Notes under the pieces: model-generated
What the model was told of the DNA's origin: nothing
Database searches by the model: none
What the model saw: only the letters and a program-made list of their open reading frames with translations
Part shown: piece after piece, positions 1-6,541 of the stretch
Numbering within the stretch: position 1 is the first letter of the stretch
Layout: each line of letters begins with the position of its first letter
Program-made: the position numbers and the translations under genes
Source of the DNA: Candidatus Omnitrophota bacterium
GTDB taxonomy: Bacteria; Omnitrophota; Gorgyraeia; JABMRN01; RBG-13-46-9
Length of the DNA stretch: 16,598 nt
Assembly: GCA_013203315.1 (NCBI GenBank)
Contig: JABMQJ010000028.1
Coordinates: 1-16,598, forward strand
Reading direction: 5' to 3'

Positions 1-470
1 CAGGCCCAAGGCCCATAACCCCTGGCATAGGCGAGGGAGGAAGACATCCGATAACCCCTGGCATAGGCGAGGGAGGAAGGCATCCGAGACCAAAGCCAAG
101 GCCAATAGACCCGGTAGTCTTAAAATACGCCCCAGGTCCAATACCGAAGCCGATAGATCCACCAATGGTACTGAAATACGCCCCAGGCCCAATACCGAAG
201 CCGATAAAACCACCGATTGCCCTGAAATACGCCCCAGGCCCAATACCGGGGAACACGGTAAGCGTTACAATGAAAGTGACAAAAACCAATGACGAAACCG
301 TGAATAAGCTTGTACTGCGGAAAATAGCAGAATTACGAAACAAAATACGCGAAGCCTTTAACGGACCAACGGAAAAAATGGGAAGAAACATAAATGTATC
401 AGTGAGTAAAGGCCCGGAATTAAAAAAAGTAACGTTAATGGTAGGCGAAGACATTAGCAATCCCAAGTAA
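1..470 (+). CDS. Proline-rich tandem-repeat protein, 5'-truncated at the window edge; C-terminal ~75 aa resemble a TonB/TolA-type ββαβ domain. The ORF-track start at 165 is an internal Met.
   Basis: The frame of the tracked ORF 165..470 is open with no stop from nt 3 to 470. Translation reads GPRPITPGIGEGGRHPITPGIGEGGRHPRPKPRPIDPVVLKYAPGPIPKPIDPPMVLKYAPGPIPKPIKPPIALKYAPGPIPGNTVSVTMKV... Repeat periods are 36 and 51 nt, both multiples of 3. Differences between copies are mostly synonymous (tta/ctg Leu, ggt/ggc, cca/ccg, aga/agg). The ATG at 165 corresponds to ATT (Ile) in the next repeat copy. The tail GNTVSVTMKVTKTNDETVNKLVL-RKIAELRNKIREAF-GRNINVSVSKG has β-β-α-β topology like TonB_C, preceded by a PIPKPIKPP rigid linker. 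The TonB call is by eye only. Confidence 0.55.
   Translation, partial: GPRPITPGIGEGGRHPITPGIGEGGRHPRPKPRPIDPVVLKYAPGPIPKPIDPPMVLKYAPGPIPKPIKPPIALKYAPGPIPGNTVSVTMKVTKTNDETVNKLVLRKIAELRNKIREAFNGPTEKMGRNINVSVSKGPELKKVTLMVGEDISNPK
15..86 (+). repeat. Two perfect-phase 36-nt tandem coding repeats (12 aa, ITPGIGEGGRHP) differing by one synonymous a/g
   Basis: ataacccctggcataggcgagggaggaag[a/g]catccg at 15-50 and 51-86. Confidence 0.8.
120..254 (+). repeat. About 2.7 copies of a 51-nt tandem coding repeat (17 aa, [V/A]LKYAPGPIPKPI[D/K]PP[M/I])
   Basis: Units at 120-170, 171-221 and 222-~254; motif aaatacgccccagg[t/c]ccaataccgaagccgata. Confidence 0.8.
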
Positions 471-538: not shown

Positions 539-567
539 TTGCCTATTTTAAATAAATAATGTATACT
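539..567 (+). promoter_or_regulatory. Sigma70-like promoter for the rSAM operon
   Basis: -35 TTGCCT (539-544), 17-nt spacer, -10 TATACT (562-567); GGAGG RBS at 585-589 lies 7 nt before ATG 597. Confidence 0.55.
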
Positions 568-596
568 TAACTCAAAGCATAAATGGAGGAACTAAA

Positions 597-1730
597 ATGG
601 ATCCAAGAGAAGCGGAAAGAAGAAAATGGGTGAAAACATTAAAACCAGAAACCATAGTGTGGGAAATAACCTTAGCCTGCAATATGAAATGTATACATTG
701 CGGTTCAAGCGCAGGCCCTTTAAGAAAACGGCCGGATGAATTAAGCACGAAAGAAGCTATAGGCCTTATCAGACAATTAAAAGAAATAGGAACCGAAAGA
801 ATTGTCCTGTCAGGAGGAGAACCTTTCTTAAGAAAAGATTGGGAAGTTTTGGCGAAGGAAGTAGCCGCGTTAGATATGATACCGTCTTTTATTAGTAATG
901 GTTTTTTGTTAGATGAAAAAAAAGCAGAAAAAATAAAGGCTTTGAACAGACCGGATGCCCATGTGGGCGTGAGCGTTGACGGAGACGAGAAAACCCACGA
1001 TTATATAAGACAGACCAAAGGCTCTTTTAAAAAAGCGACCAGCGCACTCGAAATACTGAAAGAGAAGGGAATCTTTGCTTCAGCCATAACGCAGGTGAAT
1101 ATGCTTAATTTCAAGTTATTGCCGAAGATAAGAGACCATGTATTTAAACGTGGAATTTATGTTTGGCAGATTCAGTTGGCAACGCCATGGGGAAGGTTAG
1201 CCAAAAATCCCAAACTTCTCTTGACACCAAAGAATTACCTAAAATTAGTAAAATTTATAGCAGAACAACGGAAAATATTCGGAGAGAAAATTGTAGGCGC
1301 TGACGACATCGGATACTATACAGAATTAGAACAACAAATAAGGCCTCAGAAAGAATGGGGCGGATGTCACGCCGGGTTAAGGGCGCTTGGCTTAACAAGC
1401 AATGGTAATGTAACCGGCTGTCTGTCGCTGCAGGAACCGCAGTTTATCGAAGGCAATATCCGCAAGCGAAAATTAAAAGATATCTGGTATGACCCTAACC
1501 TTTTCTCCTATAATAGAAATTTTAAAGAGGAATGCATGGAAGGATTTTGCAAGGAGTGCCCCTACCGGCTGAAATGCCGCGGCGGATGCAAGAATACGGC
1601 ATATGCATTTACGGGTTCTCTCTATAATAATTGTTACTGCGTTTTTAGAGTCATGCGCGGCAAAAAAGCACCGTCGATGAAAAAGATGCTGGGGAATAGA
1701 ACGACCGGTGCCGGACAGTATCACCCATAG
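597..1730 (+). CDS. Radical SAM / SPASM-domain enzyme, anSME/QhpD-like architecture with no N-terminal RRE
   Basis: CNMKCIHC (CxxxCxxC, Cys28/32/35, nt 678-701). GGEPFL glycine-rich SAM motif. C-terminal Cys cluster WGGC...TGC...EEC-x4-C-x2-C-x5-C-x3-C...NNCYC, consistent with SPASM two-auxiliary-cluster domains. The CxxxCxxC lies only 28 aa from the N-terminus, so there is no room for an RRE. Confidence 0.85.
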   Translation: MDPREAERRKWVKTLKPETIVWEITLACNMKCIHCGSSAGPLRKRPDELSTKEAIGLIRQLKEIGTERIVLSGGEPFLRKDWEVLAKEVAALDMIPSFISNGFLLDEKKAEKIKALNRPDAHVGVSVDGDEKTHDYIRQTKGSFKKATSALEILKEKGIFASAITQVNMLNFKLLPKIRDHVFKRGIYVWQIQLATPWGRLAKNPKLLLTPKNYLKLVKFIAEQRKIFGEKIVGADDIGYYTELEQQIRPQKEWGGCHAGLRALGLTSNGNVTGCLSLQEPQFIEGNIRKRKLKDIWYDPNLFSYNRNFKEECMEGFCKECPYRLKCRGGCKNTAYAFTGSLYNNCYCVFRVMRGKKAPSMKKMLGNRTTGAGQYHP

Positions 1731-1739
1731 GAGGTAATA

Positions 1740-2693
1740 ATGGGGAAAATTACCATAGGCATTGTCGGCGCGGAAAATGAAGCGCACTCTGCCCATATGA
1801 AAAACATCCTTCAGGAAAAAGGAATAGATACACTAATTATCGATACACTCAAGTATCCCGAAAGCGTAACATTAAGCATTACAGACAATGATGTAATATA
1901 CAACGGAAAGTCCCTACGCAATATAAATGTCTTTTATATCAGGTCCCTATTCTATAGTTTACCGCCTTATGACCTGGAACAGAGGAGGCGTGAGACAGAG
2001 GTTGACCTTGACAATTGGTATGTAGAATATATGGCAGAAAGGGAAAGGCAGTCCCATCTTACCTCGTGGTTATGGATTGAGGCCGGAAAAGGAAAGCATA
2101 TCATAAACCCTGTCGATTCTTTCGATACCCATTATCTTAAGCCCTATCAAATATATCTGCTGAGAAAAAATGGTATTCCGATACCAAAAACGTTAGTAAC
2201 TAATGACGAAGAAAAACTAATAGAATTTGTAAAAAAAACAAAAAGATTAATATATAAACCGGTAGCAGGGGGTGCGAAATGTAAAGAGTTATTTAAAAAG
2301 GACCTAACCAGAGAAAGATTGGAGCGACTTCGAAACTCACCTGTTTTGTTTCAAGAGCTGATAGAGGGGGATAATATAAGAGTATATGTTATAAACAATA
2401 AAATAGTATCAAGCAATGTGATTAAATCGGATGCTTTGGATTATAGGGGATCAGAGAAAGAGATATTTCCAATTTCTTTACCCGATAAAGTAAAAAAGAG
2501 GTGTATTAAAGCGGTAAAGATATGTAAAATGAAATACAGCGGTATAGATTTGAGAAGAAAATCTTCAGGCGAGTACGTATTTTTAGAATGCAATCCATCC
2601 CCGATGTTTTTGGGGATGGTTGAGGCGGCAGGCGACCCGATAGACGAATATTTTGCCGATTACCTTATTAAATTAGCGAAAAGCAGGATATGA
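1740..2693 (+). CDS. ATP-grasp ligase, RimK / glutathione-synthetase-like
   Basis: Strong RBS taggaggtaataATG. Motifs IYKPVAGGAKCKEL, LFQELIEGDNIRVYVI, GIDLRRKSSGEYVFLECNPSPMF are typical of the RimK-like ATP-grasp fold. Starts 9 nt after the rSAM stop. Confidence 0.8.
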   Translation: MGKITIGIVGAENEAHSAHMKNILQEKGIDTLIIDTLKYPESVTLSITDNDVIYNGKSLRNINVFYIRSLFYSLPPYDLEQRRRETEVDLDNWYVEYMAERERQSHLTSWLWIEAGKGKHIINPVDSFDTHYLKPYQIYLLRKNGIPIPKTLVTNDEEKLIEFVKKTKRLIYKPVAGGAKCKELFKKDLTRERLERLRNSPVLFQELIEGDNIRVYVINNKIVSSNVIKSDALDYRGSEKEIFPISLPDKVKKRCIKAVKICKMKYSGIDLRRKSSGEYVFLECNPSPMFLGMVEAAGDPIDEYFADYLIKLAKSRI

Positions 2694-3649
2694 GTAACGC
2701 GGAATGCCAGGATTTTGCAGATAGGAAATTCCACAATATCTTCCATTTCGAATACGGCCTTCTGGACGATAGCACTTTCTGGATATCACCCGGCAATAAC
2801 ACCCTCTTGAGAATTGATAAATTCACATTGAATATATTACTGGATTTGAACACTGGAAAATCTATGTGCGAGGCGGCAAAAAAATATAATGTAGAGTTAA
2901 AAGAAGTAACGGATATTTATAATAGACTTGAGCAAAACGGATTTGTAGTAGCAGCAAACTTCGGAAAAATAAAACGTTCAAACCCAAAAGAAGACATAGA
3001 TATCGCCCCGTATATTTTGATTTTTTTAGCATTGATAATCGGACAACTTTTTTACTTCACTCATATGGCAAAGACAGTCCTGATGAATAAAACAATCGAA
3101 GGCATAGTAGTCGGCGCTATTGCCATAGCAGCTATTTTTTTTCACGAACTCGGCCATTATTTAGTCTCTTGGAAATATACAAAAGTAAAACCTAAAATGA
3201 AATTCGCTATTTTAAAAATATTTCCGGTAATCTATGTCGACACAAACCTCGCGTGGCGGCTTCCGAAGAACGAAAGGCTTCTTGTAAGTTTAAGCGGTGT
3301 GTTTTTTGATTTGATTATAAATACGATTGTGGTAATATTAGTATTGGGAAAAGGCTCTTTGGAATATTTCGTTACGCCATTTTTGTTGACCCAGTATATA
3401 AGGATTTCTATTTTAATTAACCCTGTTTTTAAGGGCGACGGATATTGGATATTGTCAGACCTGCTGGGTGCCGTAAATATGGAAAGGAAAGGTATTGAAG
3501 AATTAAAAAGGGGTAAAATAAACTTCTTTTCCCTGTACGGAGTTATATCTTTAATCTTTTCTATATTAGCTGCATTCGGCTTGATATGGTTTATATATAA
3601 TTTGGCAAGACCGTTTATCGTAAATTTTGTGTTACCGTTTTTTAGATAA
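2690..3649 (+). CDS. Polytopic membrane HExxH metalloprotease (S2P/M50-like) with an N-terminal cytoplasmic PqqD-like RRE domain
   Basis: Overlaps the ATP-grasp stop by ATGA. Residues ~27-88, FWISPGNNTLLRIDKFTLNILLDLNTGKSMCEAAKKYNVELKEVTDIYNRLEQNGFVV, match the PqqD/RRE pattern (LN..g..iw.ll.g..t..ei...l...y.v....v..D....l..L...g.v). HELGH sits in a TM helix (aa 152-156, nt 3143-3157). A second motif INPVFKGDG (aa 243-251) resembles the S2P NxxPxxxLDG zinc-ligand motif. At least 6 hydrophobic TM segments. Confidence 0.65.
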   Translation: MSNAECQDFADRKFHNIFHFEYGLLDDSTFWISPGNNTLLRIDKFTLNILLDLNTGKSMCEAAKKYNVELKEVTDIYNRLEQNGFVVAANFGKIKRSNPKEDIDIAPYILIFLALIIGQLFYFTHMAKTVLMNKTIEGIVVGAIAIAAIFFHELGHYLVSWKYTKVKPKMKFAILKIFPVIYVDTNLAWRLPKNERLLVSLSGVFFDLIINTIVVILVLGKGSLEYFVTPFLLTQYIRISILINPVFKGDGYWILSDLLGAVNMERKGIEELKRGKINFFSLYGVISLIFSILAAFGLIWFIYNLARPFIVNFVLPFFR

Positions 3650-3663
3650 AGAGGGAGGGTATT

Positions 3664-4437
3664 ATGGAGTTCATGAAATCATTAAATTTCTTGGGATTCG
3701 GCATTTTAATATTTATTGTATTTATTATCGCAGCCGCCATAAGGATAGTAAAGCAGTATGAAAGAGCAATTGTTTTTAGGCTCGGAAAGTTTATCTGTAC
3801 AAAAGGTCCGGGTTTAATCTTTATAATACCTATCATAGATAGGGCCCTAAAAGTAGACATACGAGTAAATTCTATAGACGTGCCAAGACAGGAAACTATA
3901 ACAAAAGATAATGTGTCGGTTATTGTCGATGCCGTAGTATACTACAAAGTAGAGAATCCGGAAAAGGCCATAATAGAAGTCAAGAATTCCATCGAGGCCA
4001 CATTTCTTATAGCACAGACGACCTTGAGAAGCGTAATAGGTCAGACAGAGCTCGATGGGCTTCTATCGCAAAGAGACGAAATCAATAAAAATTTGAGAGA
4101 AATTATCGACAAACATACCACTCCCTGGGGGATAAAGGTAATTACGGTGGAGATAAAAGAATTAGCTTTACCGGAAGAGATGAAGCGTGCCATGGCAAGG
4201 CAGGCAGAGTCTGAGAGAGAAAGAAGAGCAAAGATTATAAACGCCGAAGGCGAATACCAGGCCGCGGAAAAATTACGCCAGGCAGCAGAAATAATGAGCA
4301 AAGAGCCGATCACGGTGCAATTACGTTATCTTCAAACGCTTTCGGAGATTTCTGTCGACAAGAGCTCAACCATAATTTTTCCGGTCCCTATTGATTTAAT
4401 ATCTAATATTTTGAAAAAAGCGGACGAAAAAAAGTAG
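3664..4437 (+). CDS. SPFH / band-7 (stomatin/prohibitin-like) membrane scaffold protein
   Basis: Strong RBS agagggaggg. N-terminal TM helix FLGFGILIFIVFIIAAAI. Core SPFH signature RLGKF...GPGL.FIIP..D....VDIR....DVP.Q...TKDNV.V.VDAVVYYKV, coiled-coil Ala/Glu/Arg-rich C-terminus. Confidence 0.85.
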   Translation: MEFMKSLNFLGFGILIFIVFIIAAAIRIVKQYERAIVFRLGKFICTKGPGLIFIIPIIDRALKVDIRVNSIDVPRQETITKDNVSVIVDAVVYYKVENPEKAIIEVKNSIEATFLIAQTTLRSVIGQTELDGLLSQRDEINKNLREIIDKHTTPWGIKVITVEIKELALPEEMKRAMARQAESERERRAKIINAEGEYQAAEKLRQAAEIMSKEPITVQLRYLQTLSEISVDKSSTIIFPVPIDLISNILKKADEKK

Positions 4438-4466
4438 ACTAATACACGGCCAAATAATCTTCACCC

Positions 4467-4497
4467 AAAATGTCTACCCTTAAATGGTGGACATTTT
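4467..4497 (+). terminator. Hairpin, probably bidirectional terminator after the SPFH gene
   Basis: aaaatgtctacc / ggtggacatttt 12-bp stem with one G·U, 7-nt loop; the A-tract and U-tract form the stem base. Confidence 0.5.
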
Positions 4498-4596
4498 GCA
4501 ACTATCCATATCTGAGAGAGTTACAAAAGTAGTGGACAAAATGGACACTTCTTCGCCAAATACTTACGCGTTTGGCTTCGAAGTGCAGGCAAAATA

Positions 4597-4797
4597 TCAG
4601 TACTCTTGTTCGAATTTGTCCATTCCGTATTTGCAAGCCTTTTTGGCCGTTTTTGTGTTTATGTTCAAGCTTTTGGCTATCTTTTCATAGCGCATTCCAA
4701 GTAGTCGCAATTCTGTTGCTTTTTGGGCTAATCTTTGATATAAATGTATATATTGAACAAGTAATATCTTAATATGTGTGGTAATTTCGGCTAATGT
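4597..4797 (-). other. Open minus-strand frame encoding an HTH-like peptide, with no canonical start apart from an internal ATG (4695) or TTG (4710)
   Basis: Reverse-strand translation ...ILLVQYIHLYQRLAQKATELRLLGMRYEKIAKSLNINTKTAKKACKYGMDKFEQEY* has a helix-turn-helix pattern reminiscent of sigma70 region 4 / small transposase HTHs. No convincing RBS. Confidence 0.2.
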
Positions 4798-4836
4798 TCA
4801 AATTGGTTGCAGCCGAATCCGCCAACGTAAACAAAT

Positions 4837-6541
4837 TATGTCATACCTATCACTAGCCAGAAAATACAGACCCCAGAAGTTTGATGAAATCGTAGGCCAG
4901 GACCACATCGCCACCACGCTTAAAAACGCCGTTACCCTGGAAAGGGTTGCGCACGCCTATCTCTTTGCTGGGCCAAGAGGAGTCGGCAAGACCTCAACGG
5001 CGCGAATCTTGGCAAAAAGCTTAAACTGCGAAAAAGGCCCGACCCCGGCGCCCTGCGGCAAGTGCACATCATGCACTGAGATCGCCAAAAGCATAAGCAT
5101 GGACGTTATAGAAATAGACGGCGCCTCGAACAGGGGAATCGATGAAATAAGAAACTTAAAAGAAAACATAAAATTCGCCTCCATCCACGGAAAATTCAGG
5201 ATATATATTATCGACGAAGTTCACATGCTGACGCAGGAGGCGTTTAACGCGCTTTTAAAAACCTTAGAAGAGCCCCCGCCTCACGTAAAGTTTATTTTCG
5301 CGACAACACAGCCCCACAAGGTATTGCCTACGATCATTTCCAGGTGCCAGCGTTTCGACTTCAGGAAAATTTCAGCAGAAGACATTACAAAAAAAATAAA
5401 AGAGATCAGAAAAAAAGAAGATTTAAAATTAAACGATGACGCGACATTCCTGATTACAAAGGCAGCCGACGGAAGCATGCGTGACGCAGAAGTAATTCTC
5501 GACCAGCTTCTTTCGTTTACAAAAGGAAAAATTGAAGCAAACGACGTCACAAATGCCCTGGGTTTATTAGAAGGAGAGATACTCCTTGACATAGCAGAAG
5601 CTATTTTAAAAAACGAAAAAGAAAAGATTTTAAATCTTCTAAACGAACTCATAAACAGCGGAAAAGATCCTGTTTTCATAGCCTCAAGCATCATAGAGCA
5701 TTTCAGGAATCTTTTGGTGGCAAACGTAGCAAAGGATGATACAAAAGCCTACATGACGCTTTCCGAAGAGGATAATAACAAGCTAAAAACGCAAGGTAAG
5801 AAGTTTTCACTCGACGAGATTTTATACATTACGTACACGTTATCCGCCACGATAGAATTCATAAAGAAAACAAGCCTGGGGCGCATACCGCTTGAGATTT
5901 CGCTCATAAAATTAACCGAAAGAAAAAAACTTACCTCGATAAAAGAAATTTTAGAAAGGCTCTCGTCCTTCGAAAAAAAGATAGGAAGCGGCGAAGAAAT
6001 TCCGCAAGGGATAAGAGTTCAAGCTGCGTCACCTGAGATGATAATAGAAAAAGAAACTCCTCCCGTAGTGTCAAAAGCAGTGCCGGAGCCCGAACTTGCC
6101 GCGGAAAAAGATATACTACTTTTGCAGAAAATAAAAACCTCCTGGATTAATATTATTAATTTCATAAAACAAAAGAAAATGTCCGTAGCGACTTTTCTTT
6201 CCGACGGGAGGCTGCTTAACGTAAAAGACAGGACCCTCGCGATAGGCTTCGGAAAAAATAGCTCACTCCACAAAGAACAGATCGAGGCAAACACAAATAA
6301 AAAGTTTGTAGAAGAGGCTATCCGTAGCGTTGTGGGCGAGGACGTATCTTTAAGCGTTGAAAGCGTGGAAGACGAACCCGGGCAGGGAAATGAAATACCG
6401 GGTAACGAAAAAAACGCTTCGCAGGAAGAGGCTACAAGCGGCCGGACAAATAAAATAGATCCGATAGTAGAATCAGCCATCGGCATATTTGACGGAAGAA
6501 TCATAGATATAAGAAGAGCCAAAAAAGAGGGTACAGGATGA
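4837..6541 (+). CDS. dnaX: DNA polymerase III subunit gamma/tau
   Basis: MSYLSLARKYRPQKFDEIVGQ N-terminus. Walker A GPRGVGKTS. Zn module C-x8-CGKCTSC. DEVHML. SRCQRFDF sensor. I prefer the ATG at 4837 over the track's GTG at 4778 because the N-terminus aligns with canonical DnaX. Confidence 0.9.

What the first reader, a model, noticed from the sequence alone, without database searches (positions are those of the whole stretch)
539..4497. Self-contained operon: rSAM-SPASM, ATP-grasp, RRE-fused membrane metalloprotease and SPFH scaffold, a candidate undescribed maturation system
Four tightly packed genes with gaps of 9, -4 and 14 nt sit between an upstream terminator and a downstream hairpin, with their own TTGCCT-17-TATACT promoter. 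The rSAM-SPASM enzyme has no RRE of its own. A PqqD-like RRE is instead fused to the N-terminus of the HExxH intramembrane protease, which parallels the PqqD/PqqE split-RRE logic. An ATP-grasp ligase (the enzyme class that makes graspetide lactone/lactam links or adds amino-acid tails) is translationally coupled between them. The SPFH protein probably scaffolds or regulates the protease, as HflKC does with FtsH or stomatin with NfeD. I know of no described RiPP or protein-modification class that combines these four parts. No precursor is evident; candidates are the adjacent Pro-rich repeat protein, an unseen small ORF, or a gene in trans.
Basis: partly seen in the sequence, partly recalled or inferred. 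Interest (0 to 1): 0.85.

Follow-up and report, generated by a model that had tools for sequence, protein, structure and literature searches.

The report
Hybrid graspetide–spliceotide-like peptide maturation locus
The four genes are real and belong with the neighbouring proline-rich repeat gene, forming a pathway that most likely decorates one long ribosomal protein with two known kinds of protease-inhibitor chemistry and trims it with a membrane protease paired with a stomatin, so it is a new combination of known parts and not a new class.

Summary
Genes, spacings (9, -4, 14 nt), flanking hairpins and domain calls are all as described, in a Candidatus Omnitrophota MAG.

- The ATP-grasp is a close relative of PsnB, the plesiocin (group 2 graspetide) macrocyclase (E 5e-54), with PsnB's leader-binding pocket conserved.
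- The rSAM/SPASM best matches the splicease family model TIGR04103, but scores 260 bits against a cut-off of 725.
- The substrate is the upstream Pro-rich repeat ORF, not a hidden gene. In related loci its homologues carry the plesiocin LFIEDL-type leader.
- Across 12 tabulated loci core motifs track enzyme content: T-x4-E with the ATP-grasp, ΦY(G/A) with this rSAM type, and P-hh-A-P with a second rSAM type.
- Some related ΦYG sites match validated splice tags (VRPLYGIPSP against PIRPLYGLPI).
- The protease and the stomatin are the constant core. The two modifying enzymes are swappable modules, and in some loci they are fused.

Best reading: a single-precursor hybrid of a graspetide and a spliceotide-like RiPP, a new variant of known kinds. 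The window's sites are KYA, not XYG, and the precursor N-terminus lies off the contig.

The parts
3..470 (+). C-terminal 155 codons of the precursor (substrate) gene. It is a Pro-rich repeat protein, and its N-terminus, where the leader is expected, lies beyond the window start.
   Evidence: - The frame is open from position 3 to the TAA at 468-470.
- Its C-terminus KKVTLMVGEDISNPK* aligns with ...TTLALGEEGSSPKFRE* of the L013 precursor.
- Homologous genes sit in the same position in L005, L007, L009, L013, L097, L110, L143 and L254. They carry a KKLFIE[DE]LE.RKSTSPL leader.
- All seven contigs carrying the locus break inside these repeats.
18..71 (+). Two ITPGIGEGGRHP repeats, each with a T-x4-E motif (18-35 and 54-71). 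These are predicted single omega-ester sites for the ATP-grasp.
   Evidence: - The region falls in a 36-nt x2 tandem repeat at 15-87.
- The T-x4-E spacing equals the inner ring of the plesiocin TTxxxxEE core.
- The T-x4-E motif occurs in all 10 tabulated ATP-grasp loci (window, 8 related loci and Ammoniphilus) and in neither of the 2 tabulated loci without one; the later Elusimicrobiota locus L254, which also lacks an ATP-grasp, has none either.
123..233 (+). Three VLKYAPGPIPKPI(D/K)PP repeats. The K-Y-A triplets are at 123-131, 174-182 and 225-233, and are the predicted sites for the rSAM.
   Evidence: - The region is a 51-nt x2.5 tandem repeat.
- The ΦY[G/A/S] motif is present in 4 of 4 tabulated loci with this rSAM type and in 0 of 8 others.
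- It is also present in three loci examined afterwards: L254, L252 and L255.
- Related sites match validated splice tags.
429..452 (+). C-terminal VTLMVGED core, of the VTxxxxED type.
   Evidence: RcpA, a group 2 graspetide precursor, has the same VTxxxxED motif, and one Thr-Glu ester was shown there experimentally (PMC11626197).
493..527 (+). Intrinsic terminator or attenuator hairpin directly after the precursor stop codon.
   Evidence: - The stem has 15 pairs and is followed by a T-run.
- Equivalent strong hairpins with T-runs follow the precursor stop in L005, L007, L009, L013 and L011.
539..567 (+). Promoter-like site (TTGCCT-17-TATACT) for the enzyme genes. The RBS GGAGGA is at 585-590.
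   Evidence: The consensus scan finds it, but such sites are no more frequent than chance. Position and similar -10-like elements in related loci give weak support.
597..1730 (+). Radical SAM/SPASM enzyme ('type A'), 377 aa, with no RRE. It is a splicease-like maturase.
   Evidence: - Pfam Radical_SAM and SPASM both hit.
- The best NCBIfam match is TIGR04103 at 259.7 bits over nearly the full length. The cut-off is 725.
- The full SPASM cysteine pattern, Cx17C...CX2CX5CX3C, can be read in the sequence.
- The family has 945 clusters at E<=1e-30.
1740..2693 (+). PsnB-like ATP-grasp macrocyclase of the group 2 graspetide type, 317 aa.
   Evidence: - It matches 7DRM (PsnB) at E 5.3e-54 and 187 bits over the full length. 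The next graspetide ligase scores 49 bits or less.
- Of PsnB's leader-pocket residues, Y171, R192, L196, V201 and F203 are identical. I193 is Leu and R181 is Lys.
2690..3649 (+). Membrane metalloprotease, 319 aa. The N-terminal RRE domain is about nt 2723-2974. HExxH (H152-H156) is at nt 3143-3157. NPxxxxDG (N244-G251) is at nt 3419-3442.
   Evidence: - H152, E153, H156, N244, P245, D250 and G251 are invariant in 21 homologues.
- The AF2 model has pLDDT 85. The whole model resembles SpoIVFB.
3664..4437 (+). Stomatin/slipin (SPFH) protein, 257 aa, with an N-terminal membrane anchor.
   Evidence: - Band_7 scores 138 bits.
- It scores 245 bits to human stomatin and 211 bits to PH stomatin, entry 3bk6.
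- It sits in the cluster in every related locus where this could be checked, in three different gene orders.
4466..4498 (+). Hairpin after the stomatin gene, a possible end of the operon.
   Evidence: 13-bp stem, dG -16.7 kcal/mol, z -2.2.

Best explanation
The locus, including the upstream ORF, encodes maturation of one long multi-core ribosomal precursor that combines two known RiPP chemistries.

1. **Precursor.** The Pro-rich repeat protein (window 3-470, N-terminus off the contig) is the substrate. Its own terminator hairpin separates it from the enzyme genes. By homology it starts with a plesiocin-type leader (LFIE[DE]LE.RKSTSPL). This leader is inferred and is not visible in the window.
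2. **ATP-grasp.** The PsnB-like enzyme binds that leader in its conserved hydrophobic pocket and makes Thr-Glu side-chain esters at T-x4-E motifs (ITPGIGEGG x2, VTLMVGED). This is inferred from close homology.
3. **rSAM.** The RRE-less rSAM/SPASM acts on the ΦY(G/A) sites in the Pro-rich repeats (LKYAPGP x3). The most likely reaction is that of its nearest characterised relatives, the spliceases. [quoted passage not shown] This is inferred with moderate confidence, because the window's sites are XYA and not the canonical XYG.
4. **Protease.** The N-terminal RRE binds the leader and may also present the substrate to the rSAM, as PlpY and PqqD do in trans. The S2P/M50-type HExxH/NPxxxxDG site then removes the leader at the membrane, possibly coupled to export as proposed for EpeP. 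The fold and motifs are shown. The function is inferred.
5. **Stomatin.** The oligomer organises or gates the protease in the membrane. This is inferred only from strict co-conservation and from known SPFH-protease pairs.
6. **Product.** A long Pro-rich polypeptide studded with graspetide rings and ketoamide warheads, two motifs that both inhibit proteases. This step is speculative.
For: **ATP-grasp**
- It matches PsnB at E 5e-54 over the full length, with the leader-pocket residues conserved.

**Precursor family**
- Related loci have, in the same position, a Pro-rich gene with the LFIEDL/LFIEEL leader and TTLAVGEEGG cores.
- These are the published plesiocin motifs LFIEDL and TTxxxxEE.
- A leader profile retrieves about 70-aa Bacillales precursors with three TTMAVGEEGG cores.
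- The Ammoniphilus locus has precursor, ATP-grasp (37% identity) and a full-length homologue of the RRE-protease at E 1e-28.

**Enzyme/motif covariation**
- T-x4-E occurs in 10 of 10 tabulated ATP-grasp loci and in 0 of 2 without one.
- ΦY[GAS] occurs in 4 of 4 type A rSAM loci and in 0 of 8 others.
- P-hh-A-P occurs in 4 of 4 type B rSAM loci and in 0 of 8 others.
- Three further type A loci fetched afterwards all have an adjacent Pro-rich ORF with repeated ΦYG. They are Elusimicrobiota L254 (KYGPGP, MYGIEP), L252 (PLYGVPYP) and Chloroflexi L255 (PIRPMYGVFP x4).
- L254 also lacks an ATP-grasp and has no T-x4-E core.

**Splicease link**
- The best family for all type A members is TIGR04103 at 220-260 bits.
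- PlpX defines that rSAM subclass, given as IPR026482. That IPR026482 is the InterPro entry built on TIGR04103 is my recollection, not checked here.
- Validated splice sites are AAMYGVVFP and PIRPLYGLPI. These resemble L097 VRPLYGIPSP and L255 PIRPMYGVFP.
- Group 2 graspetide and spliceotide clusters are already known to sit side by side in Rheinheimera, and both products inhibit proteases.

**Other components**
- A rSAM::ATP-grasp fusion of 694 aa occurs in L009 and L013.
- The RRE fold is supported. The S2P signature is invariant.
- The stomatin identity and its co-conservation are supported.
Against: - The precursor's N-terminus, and so its leader, is not in the window or in any contig found.
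- The visible part has no full TTxxxxEE core. It has only single T-x4-E variants.
- The window's Tyr sites are K-Y-A, not X-Y-G, and no characterised splicease site with Ala was found in the papers read.
- The rSAM scores 260 bits against a TIGR04103 cut-off of 725, with TIGR03913 close behind at 230. Its placement among spliceases is therefore by best hit, not by phylogeny.
- No characterised splicease sequence was available for direct comparison.
- The motif regular expressions were written after seeing the first loci, and the loci are phylogenetically related. The covariation counts are therefore not independent trials.
- In L254 the rSAM next to the precursor is a third type (33% identity), and the type A gene lies 2 kb away.
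- The stomatin is absent from the Bacillales relatives, so it is not needed for the basic graspetide pathway.
- No chemistry was measured.
Confidence: 0.6

Rival explanations
1. The locus has the same architecture and the same substrate, but the type A rSAM does a different Tyr-centred or neighbouring reaction at the ΦY(G/A)xP motif. Options include a three-residue cyclophane or another C-C/C-O crosslink, beta-hydroxylation, or epimerisation. Tyramine excision would not be involved.
For: - All curated rSAM models score below cut-off. TIGR04103 gives 260 bits against 725, and TIGR03913, of unknown chemistry, is close at 230.
- The window has XYA and not XYG.
- Y-small-X also fits the aromatic-X-X layout of three-residue cyclophanes. 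This comes from my own knowledge and was not tested.
- The other rSAM types in sister loci act on motifs without Tyr. The system therefore clearly accommodates more than one rSAM chemistry.
Against: - None of the cyclophane, crosslink or epimerase family models ranks above TIGR04103 for any type A member.
- Related sites match experimentally validated splice tags almost residue for residue.
Confidence: 0.25
2. This is the first reader's reading: a categorically new, self-contained four-gene maturation or protein-modification system. Its substrate would be unknown or encoded in trans, and the ATP-grasp might add amino-acid tails.
For: - No Pfam or NCBIfam model reaches its cut-off for the rSAM, the ATP-grasp or the protease.
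- No curated model exists for the precursors.
- No paper describing this gene combination was found.
Against: - The ATP-grasp is a clear PsnB relative with the leader pocket conserved.
- The adjacent gene carries matching cores, and its homologues carry the matching leader.
- Enzyme content and motif content covary.
- Its best RimK/tail-ligase matches are well below cut-off (rimK_fam 71.5 of 143.4, MptN 87.6 of 350), but they are no weaker than its best graspetide HMM match (TIGR04187, 91.1 of 350). The HMM scores alone therefore do not decide this point; the PsnB match does.
Confidence: 0.07
3. The HExxH protease and the stomatin form a general membrane proteolysis or quality-control pair that merely sits beside a RiPP cluster. 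The stomatin would have no role in peptide maturation.
For: - Stomatin genes commonly pair with membrane proteases in prokaryotes. This is established knowledge of NfeD-stomatin and HflKC-FtsH.
- The Bacillales relatives of the pathway lack a stomatin.
Against: - The protease carries an RRE, a domain that binds RiPP leaders.
- Its homologue is part of the Ammoniphilus graspetide cluster.
- The stomatin stays inside the cluster through three different gene orders and at least five different genomic neighbourhoods.
Confidence: 0.08

Closest known systems
Plesiocin-type (group 2) graspetides: PsnA2/PsnB of Plesiocystis pacifica and RcpA/RcpB of Rheinheimera
   Same: - The ATP-grasp is homologous to PsnB over its full length (E 5e-54), with conserved leader-pocket residues.
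- Homologous precursors have the LFIEDL-type leader and repeated TTxxxxEE cores.
- The window's VTLMVGED equals the VTxxxxED variant modified in RcpA.
- Multi-core repeat precursors are typical of the group.
   Different: - The precursors are 140-350 aa, against about 70 aa.
- They are Pro-rich and also carry a second kind of core motif.
- A rSAM/SPASM enzyme sits in the same operon, and in some loci it is fused to the ATP-grasp.
- Leader removal is by an RRE-fused membrane metalloprotease, whereas RcpC uses a C39-peptidase transporter.
- A stomatin is co-conserved.
- The visible window cores are single T-x4-E, not TTxxxxEE.
Spliceotides: PlpX/PlpY/PlpA of Pleurocapsa, and RcsX, RasX and RhaX of Rheinheimera
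   Same: - It is an rSAM with a full SPASM domain whose best family model is the PlpX-type TIGR04103.
- Adjacent precursors are rich in ΦYG sites in a Pro-rich context resembling the validated tags PIRPLYGLPI and AAMYGVVFP.
- An RRE-type helper is present in the system, as in type I (PlpY).
- Substrates can be protein-sized.
   Different: - The rSAM scores far below the family cut-off (260 of 725).
- The window's sites are K-Y-A.
- The leader is of graspetide type, not Nif11/NHLP.
- The RRE is fused to the protease and is not a free Y protein.
- Splice-like sites and graspetide cores share one precursor.
- The chemistry is untested.
Rheinheimera multi-BGC (PNAS 2024, PMC11626197)
   Same: Group 2 graspetide genes and spliceotide genes are co-located, and the products of both inhibit proteases.
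   Different: There the two are separate clusters with separate precursors and separate processing. Here both motif kinds sit in one precursor, and both enzymes sit in one operon with one protease.
M50-family RiPP proteases: EpeP/YydH of epipeptides, the daptide HExxH protease, and TglG/TmoG
   Same: It is a polytopic HExxH intramembrane metalloprotease encoded in a RiPP cluster. There is weak but specific sequence similarity (NF041824 54.5 bits, NF058609 52.8 bits).
   Different: It is below every curated cut-off. It carries an N-terminal RRE domain, and it is paired with a stomatin.
SPFH-protease pairs: stomatin-NfeD (PH1511/PH1510), QmcA-YbbJ and HflKC-FtsH
   Same: A bona fide stomatin is encoded next to a membrane protease and is co-inherited with it.
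   Different: The partner is an S2P/M50-like metalloprotease with an RRE, not an NfeD serine protease or FtsH. No NfeD gene is in the window. Any physical or functional coupling is untested.
Lasso peptide B1/B2 (RRE plus leader peptidase) and PqqD/PqqE
   Same: - An RRE joined to a leader peptidase is the logic of the lasso B proteins.
- An RRE supplied to an RRE-less rSAM is the logic of PqqD/PqqE.
   Different: The peptidase here is a zinc intramembrane protease, not a cytosolic cysteine protease. Whether the RRE serves the rSAM at all is unknown.

Membership tests
Group 2 (plesiocin-type) graspetide pathway | ATP-grasp macrocyclase homologous to PsnB | tested here: met
   7DRM matches at E 5.3e-54 and 187 bits, residues 5-310 of 317. 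Five of seven leader-pocket residues are identical and two are conservative changes.
Group 2 (plesiocin-type) graspetide pathway | Precursor leader with the conserved LFIEDL region | tested here: inconclusive
   The window precursor lacks its N-terminus. Homologous precursors in L009, L013 and L143 have LFIEDL. L007, L097 and L110 have LFIEEL.
Group 2 (plesiocin-type) graspetide pathway | TTxxxxEE core motif(s) | tested here: inconclusive
   There are 0 full TTxxxxEE motifs in the visible 155 aa. There are three T-x4-E[G/D] variants, including VTLMVGED, the VTxxxxED type modified in RcpA. Full TTxxxxEE cores occur in sister loci.
Group 2 (plesiocin-type) graspetide pathway | Thr-Glu omega-ester crosslinks in the product | not testable with these tools
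   This needs mass spectrometry after co-expression.
Spliceotides | rSAM/SPASM splicease of the PlpX family (TIGR04103; PlpX is cited under IPR026482) | tested here: inconclusive
   TIGR04103 is the best hit at 259.7 bits and E 3.7e-77, nearly full length, but the equivalog cut-off is 725. No characterised splicease sequence was available for direct comparison or a tree. The equivalence of TIGR04103 and IPR026482 is from memory.
Spliceotides | XYG splice motif in the precursor | tested here: not met
   The window has K-Y-A three times and no Y-G. Sister loci with the same rSAM type do have KYG, MYG and LYG.
Spliceotides | [quoted passage not shown] | not testable with these tools
   This needs co-expression and MS/MS.
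RiPP recognition element (PqqD-like) | Match to the Pfam PqqD model PF05402 | tested here: not met
   There is no Pfam hit at E<=0.1 in residues 1-100. A profile search of PDB sequences gives only weak winged-helix hits.
RiPP recognition element (PqqD-like) | Three-stranded sheet plus three-helix winged-helix fold superposable on known RREs | tested here: met
   - The AF2 domain model has pLDDT 84 and folds as beta3-alpha3.
- The top 21 Foldseek hits are all RRE-bearing RiPP enzymes.
RiPP recognition element (PqqD-like) | Binds the precursor leader | not testable with these tools
This needs co-folding or a binding assay.
Site-2-protease / Peptidase M50 | HExxH in a transmembrane helix plus a downstream NxxPxxxxDG-type third zinc ligand | tested here: met
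   H152, E153, H156, N244, P245, D250 and G251 are invariant in 21 homologues. The whole-protein model resembles SpoIVFB (prob 0.89).
Site-2-protease / Peptidase M50 | Pfam PF02163 gathering score | tested here: not met
   18.5 bits against 27.2.
Stomatin/slipin (SPFH) | Band_7 domain above threshold and stomatin-level similarity | tested here: met
   138 bits against GA 23.6. 245 bits to human stomatin and 211 bits to PH stomatin, entry 3bk6.
Stomatin/slipin (SPFH) | Operon partner of NfeD type | tested here: not met
   The neighbours are the HExxH protease and a 340-nt spacer before dnaX. No NfeD domain is found among the window ORFs scanned.
Grasp-with-SPASM system (TIGR04192/TIGR04193) | ATP-grasp reaching the TIGR04192 cut-off | tested here: not met
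   43.9 bits against 230.
Anaerobic sulfatase maturase | TIGR03942 cut-off reached and a sulfatase nearby | tested here: not met
   70.4 bits against 349. No sulfatase domain is found in the window.

The most novel reading that the evidence does not exclude
A single ribosomal protein of 150-350 residues is made into a polyvalent protease inhibitor or surface polymer by modular 'plug-in' chemistry. Graspetide lactone rings and rSAM-made ketoamide or other Tyr-derived residues would be installed on interleaved repeats of one precursor. All of this would be read through one leader by an RRE anchored on an intramembrane metalloprotease that works inside a stomatin cage. That would be a new SPFH-protease pairing dedicated to natural-product maturation. 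It would also add a splicease branch that accepts X-Y-Ala sites.
Probability: 0.35. Interest if true: 0.78.

Novelty: new variant of a known kind. Interest (0 to 1): 0.62.

Why it matters
- **Class boundaries.** Two recently defined RiPP classes, group 2 graspetides and spliceotide-like rSAM products, would be merged by nature on one protein-sized precursor. Enzyme modules are gained, lost, swapped or fused while the precursor's repeat motifs change in step. This is a clean natural example of combinatorial RiPP evolution and a ready template for engineering.
- **Enzyme specificity.** The enzyme/motif covariation gives testable specificity rules for three enzymes at once.
- **RRE-tethered protease.** The RRE-fused S2P-like leader peptidase also occurs in Bacillales group 2 graspetide clusters. 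It addresses the largely open question of how graspetide leaders are removed.
- **SPFH biology.** A strictly co-inherited stomatin offers a new, genetically simple system for asking what SPFH assemblies do to a partner protease.
- **Omnitrophota.** This is one of the few concrete natural-product pathways in this uncultured phylum of very small, probably host-dependent bacteria.

Tried and rejected
- **Locus search by alignment.** The search for related loci with the protease alignment found no relatives in genome contigs or metagenome contigs. The degenerate patterns hit 600 unrelated stretches. I replaced it with a DNA pattern for NPxFxxDGYWxLSD and sorted the hits by tblastn.
- **Sequence-only RRE detection.** This failed. 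Pfam gave nothing, and a profile search of PDB sequences gave only weak winged-helix hits. Structure prediction was needed.
- **Sulfatase maturase.** Rejected: 70 bits against a cut-off of 349, and no sulfatase in the window.
- **Grasp-with-SPASM membership.** Rejected: 44 bits against 230.
- **RimK-type tail ligase.** The window protein reaches 72 of 143 bits for rimK_fam and 88 of 350 for MptN. I set this reading aside on the PsnB match and pocket, not on the HMM scores, because its best graspetide HMM score (91 of 350) is no stronger.
- **Hidden small-ORF precursor.** I looked in 471-596 and 4438-4777. No + strand ORF of 20 aa or more lies in the first region. None in the second has a leader-like or core-like motif.
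- **Three-residue cyclophane chemistry at Y-(G/A)-X.** Considered before the splicease link emerged. It is kept as a rival, not as the lead.
- **The 2840-aa protein upstream of the rSAM in L254.** Checked as a possible giant precursor. It is not Pro-rich and has no repeats.
- **Unavailable resources.** The afdb50 fold library was not available. Three papers were not held: the graspetide survey of Ramesh 2021, the review of Choi and Link 2023, and the spliceotide genome-mining paper of Scott 2022. I therefore cannot exclude that this Omnitrophota type is listed in one of them.

Full report
**1. What is in the window**

Spacings are 9, -4 and 14 nt. Pfam and NCBIfam confirm the following:
- a radical SAM enzyme with a SPASM domain;
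- an ATP-grasp;
- an HExxH membrane protease, with sub-threshold M50 and weak matches to the daptide and YydH/LiaK RiPP proteases;
- a Band_7/SPFH protein.

A 15-bp hairpin with a T-run lies at 493-527. A promoter-like TTGCCT-17-TATACT lies at 539-567. A weaker hairpin lies at 4466-4498. The promoter match is no better than chance by the scan's own statistics (14 found, 13.9 expected), although its position is right.

Exact-sequence look-up places the contig in a Candidatus Omnitrophota MAG, proteins NQU95918-NQU95932. The rest of the window is housekeeping: dnaX, recR, a pyruvate:ferredoxin oxidoreductase operon, MscS, an epimerase, a flavodoxin, a helicase, TauE and tRNA-Asn. It contains no sulfatase and no NfeD.

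**2. The upstream ORF is part of the system**

The frame entering the window at position 3 stays open to 470. It encodes ITPGIGEGGRHP x2, VLKYAPGPIPKPI(D/K)PP x3, a non-repeat stretch and the C-terminus KKVTLMVGEDISNPK. The repeats are 36-nt and 51-nt tandem DNA repeats. All seven contigs that carry the locus end inside them, so the N-terminus is unknown.

The protease has only about 20 full-length close homologues among 5.8 billion protein clusters. Their contigs show the same neighbourhood, re-arranged:

| Loci | Gene order |
|---|---|
| L005, L011 | Pro-rich gene, rSAM, protease, SPFH |
| L007, L110 | Pro-rich gene, rSAM, ATP-grasp, protease, SPFH |
| L009, L013 | SPFH, Pro-rich gene, rSAM::ATP-grasp fusion (694 aa), protease |
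| L012, L245, L143 | Pro-rich gene, ATP-grasp, protease, SPFH |
| L122 | ATP-grasp, protease, SPFH, rSAM |

The surrounding genes differ from locus to locus, so the set moves as a unit. The Pro-rich proteins, where complete, begin with a conserved KKLFIE[DE]LE.R[RK]STSPL segment (alignment). In six loci their stop codon is followed by a strong hairpin with a T-run. A hairpin between precursor and enzyme genes is, to my knowledge, a common RiPP arrangement.

**3. The ATP-grasp half is a plesiocin-type graspetide pathway**

- The window ATP-grasp matches PsnB (PDB 7DRM) at E 5e-54 over its whole length. Every other graspetide ligase in the PDB scores 49 bits or less.
- The PsnB study names LFIEDL as the leader region needed for binding and TTxxxxEE as the core. 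It lists the leader pocket as Y171, I193, L196, V201, F203, R192 and R181.
- In the printed alignment, five of these seven are identical in the window protein. The other two are I-to-L and R-to-K.
- The related precursors contain LFIEDL or LFIEEL and repeated TTLAVGEEGG.
- A profile of the leader retrieves about 70-aa Bacillales precursors of the form KKLFIEELE.RQSSSPLF...(TTMAVGEEGG)x3.
- In Ammoniphilus oxalaticus such a precursor is followed by an ATP-grasp (37% identical to the window's) and a 368-aa full-length homologue of the window protease, N-terminal domain included (E 1e-28). There is no rSAM and no SPFH there.

The trio of precursor, PsnB-like ligase and RRE-protease is therefore an existing, wider cluster type. 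The Omnitrophota loci are an elaborated branch of it. The visible part of the window's precursor has only single T-x4-E motifs. One of them, VTLMVGED, is the VTxxxxED variant shown to be esterified in the Rheinheimera group 2 graspetide RcpA.

**4. The rSAM half**

The rSAMs in these loci are of at least two kinds.
- **Type A** covers the window, L005, L011, L097, L122 and L073 (64-77% identical). Its best model is TIGR04103, 'nif11-class peptide radical SAM maturase 3', at about 250-260 bits.
- **Type B** covers L007, L110, L009 and L013 (about 25% identical). Its best model is TIGR04133.

Counting motifs in twelve precursors gives a clean pattern:

| Motif | Loci with the matching enzyme | Other loci |
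|---|---|---|
| T-x4-E | 10 of 10 with an ATP-grasp | 0 of 2 |
| ΦY[G/A/S] | 4 of 4 with type A | 0 of 8 |
| P-hh-A-P | 4 of 4 with type B | 0 of 8 |

The patterns were defined after seeing the data, and the loci are related. I therefore looked at type A homologues outside the set. The family is large, with 945 clusters at E<=1e-30. All three further loci examined have an adjacent Pro-rich ORF with repeated ΦYG:
- Elusimicrobiota L254 has leader KKLFLEDLEQRKSTSS, then KYGPGP and MYGIEP repeats. It also has the protease (43% identical) and the stomatin (60% identical). It has no ATP-grasp and no T-x4-E core.
- L252 has MTLAQPLYGVPYP...SLYAAP.
- Chloroflexi L255 has PIRPMYGVFP and three similar copies.

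PlpX, the founding splicease, is described as defining the rSAM-SPASM subclass IPR026482 found with Nif11-type precursors. To my recollection, IPR026482 corresponds to TIGR04103. [quoted passage not shown] Experimentally validated sites are AVAAMYGVVFPWD (PlpA3) and PIRPLYGLPI (PlpA2 tag). L097's VRPLYGIPSP and L255's PIRPMYGVFP are close to these.

I therefore read type A as a distant splicease branch. The caveats are real:
- The score is far below the model's cut-off.
- TIGR03913 is close behind.
- I had no characterised splicease sequence for a tree.
- The window's own sites are K-Y-A.

**5. The protease and its RRE**

Twenty-one homologues share invariant H152-E153-x-x-H156 and N244-P245-x4-D250-G251, the site-2-protease signature. 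The AF2 model (pLDDT 85) has an N-terminal beta3-alpha3 domain followed by a helical membrane domain. The whole model resembles SpoIVFB.

The leader is retained in loci that have no ATP-grasp (L005, L011, L254), and the rSAMs lack an RRE. The protease-borne RRE is therefore the obvious reader of the leader there. Whether it also activates the rSAM, as PlpY does for PlpX, is inference. M50 proteases are established RiPP leader peptidases, and EpeP is thought to export as well.

A profile search of 1.84 billion representatives finds 4,365 relatives of the protease at E<=1e-10. Only 23 score at E<=1e-30. The catalytic domain is thus common and this subfamily is small.

**6. The stomatin**

The fourth protein is a true stomatin, at 245 bits to human stomatin and 211 bits to PH stomatin, entry 3bk6. 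It lies in the cluster in every Omnitrophota or Elusimicrobiota locus where the flank is present, in three gene orders. It is absent from the Bacillales relatives. Its role as scaffold or gate for the protease rests only on this co-inheritance and on analogy with known SPFH-protease pairs.

**7. Comparison with the known, and novelty**

Co-occurrence of graspetide ATP-grasps with SPASM rSAMs has been noted before. Rheinheimera carries group 2 graspetide and spliceotide clusters side by side as separate pathways whose products both inhibit proteases.

These features were not found described in the searchable literature:
- both motif kinds on one protein-sized precursor;
- both enzymes in one operon, or fused;
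- an RRE fused to the S2P-like leader peptidase;
- the obligatory stomatin.

No Pfam or NCBIfam model exists for the precursors. Key surveys were not available to me, so prior listing cannot be excluded. I rate it a new variant of known kinds.

**8. Verdict**

The RRE, the co-conservation of the protease-SPFH core and the precursor candidate are right. 'Self-contained' and 'undescribed class' are not.
- The best explanation is a hybrid graspetide/spliceotide-like maturation pathway, at confidence 0.6. The graspetide half is high, the splicease chemistry is moderate, and the stomatin role is low.
- Interest is 0.62.

Noticed in passing
L009:5920-8004 and L013:3197-5281; precursors at L009:4874-5803 and L013:2254-3060: In two MAG loci a second rSAM type (best model TIGR04133, about 25% identical to the window's) is fused to the ATP-grasp in one 694-aa protein. 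Their precursors carry 12-13 copies of a Tyr-free KPIPILAP(Q/T)P-type motif and only one or two TTxxxxEE cores. The chemistry of this rSAM type is unknown.
   Followed up: partly
L007:4813-4947 and L011:4299-4415: These are short 'leader-only' ORFs of 44 and 38 aa, with the leader and the first T/VGE motif followed by a stop. They lie just upstream of the long precursor (L007) or of a repeat ORF in another frame (L011). They could be frameshift or assembly errors in repeats. They could also be free leader peptides acting in trans, since the PsnB leader activates its enzyme.
   Followed up: no
L254:6212-7123: In the Elusimicrobiota locus the type A rSAM is followed by a 303-aa secreted protein with seven repeats of (K/R/E)YLG(E/K/R)PHKW. 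This looks like a beta-propeller-type repeat protein with a Tyr-x-Gly motif in each blade, and it may be a protein substrate.
   Followed up: no
L252:3299-4075 and L252:4485-4856: Two ORFs sit upstream of a 46%-identical rSAM. Both start with MT(I/L)AQP(V/L)YGVPYP and end with a second (L/S)LY(G/A)(V/A)P site. The longer one also has PQPW repeats and RTX-like GGxGxD repeats. The ΦYG/rSAM association therefore seems to extend to secreted repeat proteins well outside Omnitrophota.
   Followed up: partly
window 1-260: Every contig found that carries this locus (7 contigs from 4 or more samples) begins inside the 36-nt and 51-nt tandem repeats of the precursor gene. Short-read assembly systematically loses the precursor's 5' half, so such genes will be under-called in MAGs.
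   Followed up: partly
window 4597-4710 (- strand), within the 340-nt spacer 4438-4777: A 37-aa ORF on the opposite strand has a weak sigma-70 region 4 helix-turn-helix match (17.7 bits, below the cut-off of 25.7). It is probably a gene remnant. The spacer between the stomatin gene and dnaX is unusually long for this compact window.
   Followed up: no
window 4778-6541: The mechanical ORF for dnaX starts at GTG 4778 (587 aa). Gene callers on the same sequence use the ATG at 4838 (567 aa), and the family models align from residue 21. The shorter form is probably correct.
   Followed up: no
L009 / L168 (DATJPV010000006.1) and L254 (JBDRKX010000052.1): The same cluster type occurs in MAGs labelled 'Patescibacteria group' and Elusimicrobiota. 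This indicates either horizontal spread among small-genome uncultured lineages or loose taxonomic labels. I did not check which.
   Followed up: no
window 252-428: Between the repeats and the C-terminal VTLMVGED core the window's precursor has a roughly 60-aa non-repeat segment, ...TNDETVNKLVLRKIAELRNKIREAF.... It is not seen in the other precursors and looks helical by eye. An activating helix is known to matter for spliceases (PMC11414181), but I did not test any link.
   Followed up: no
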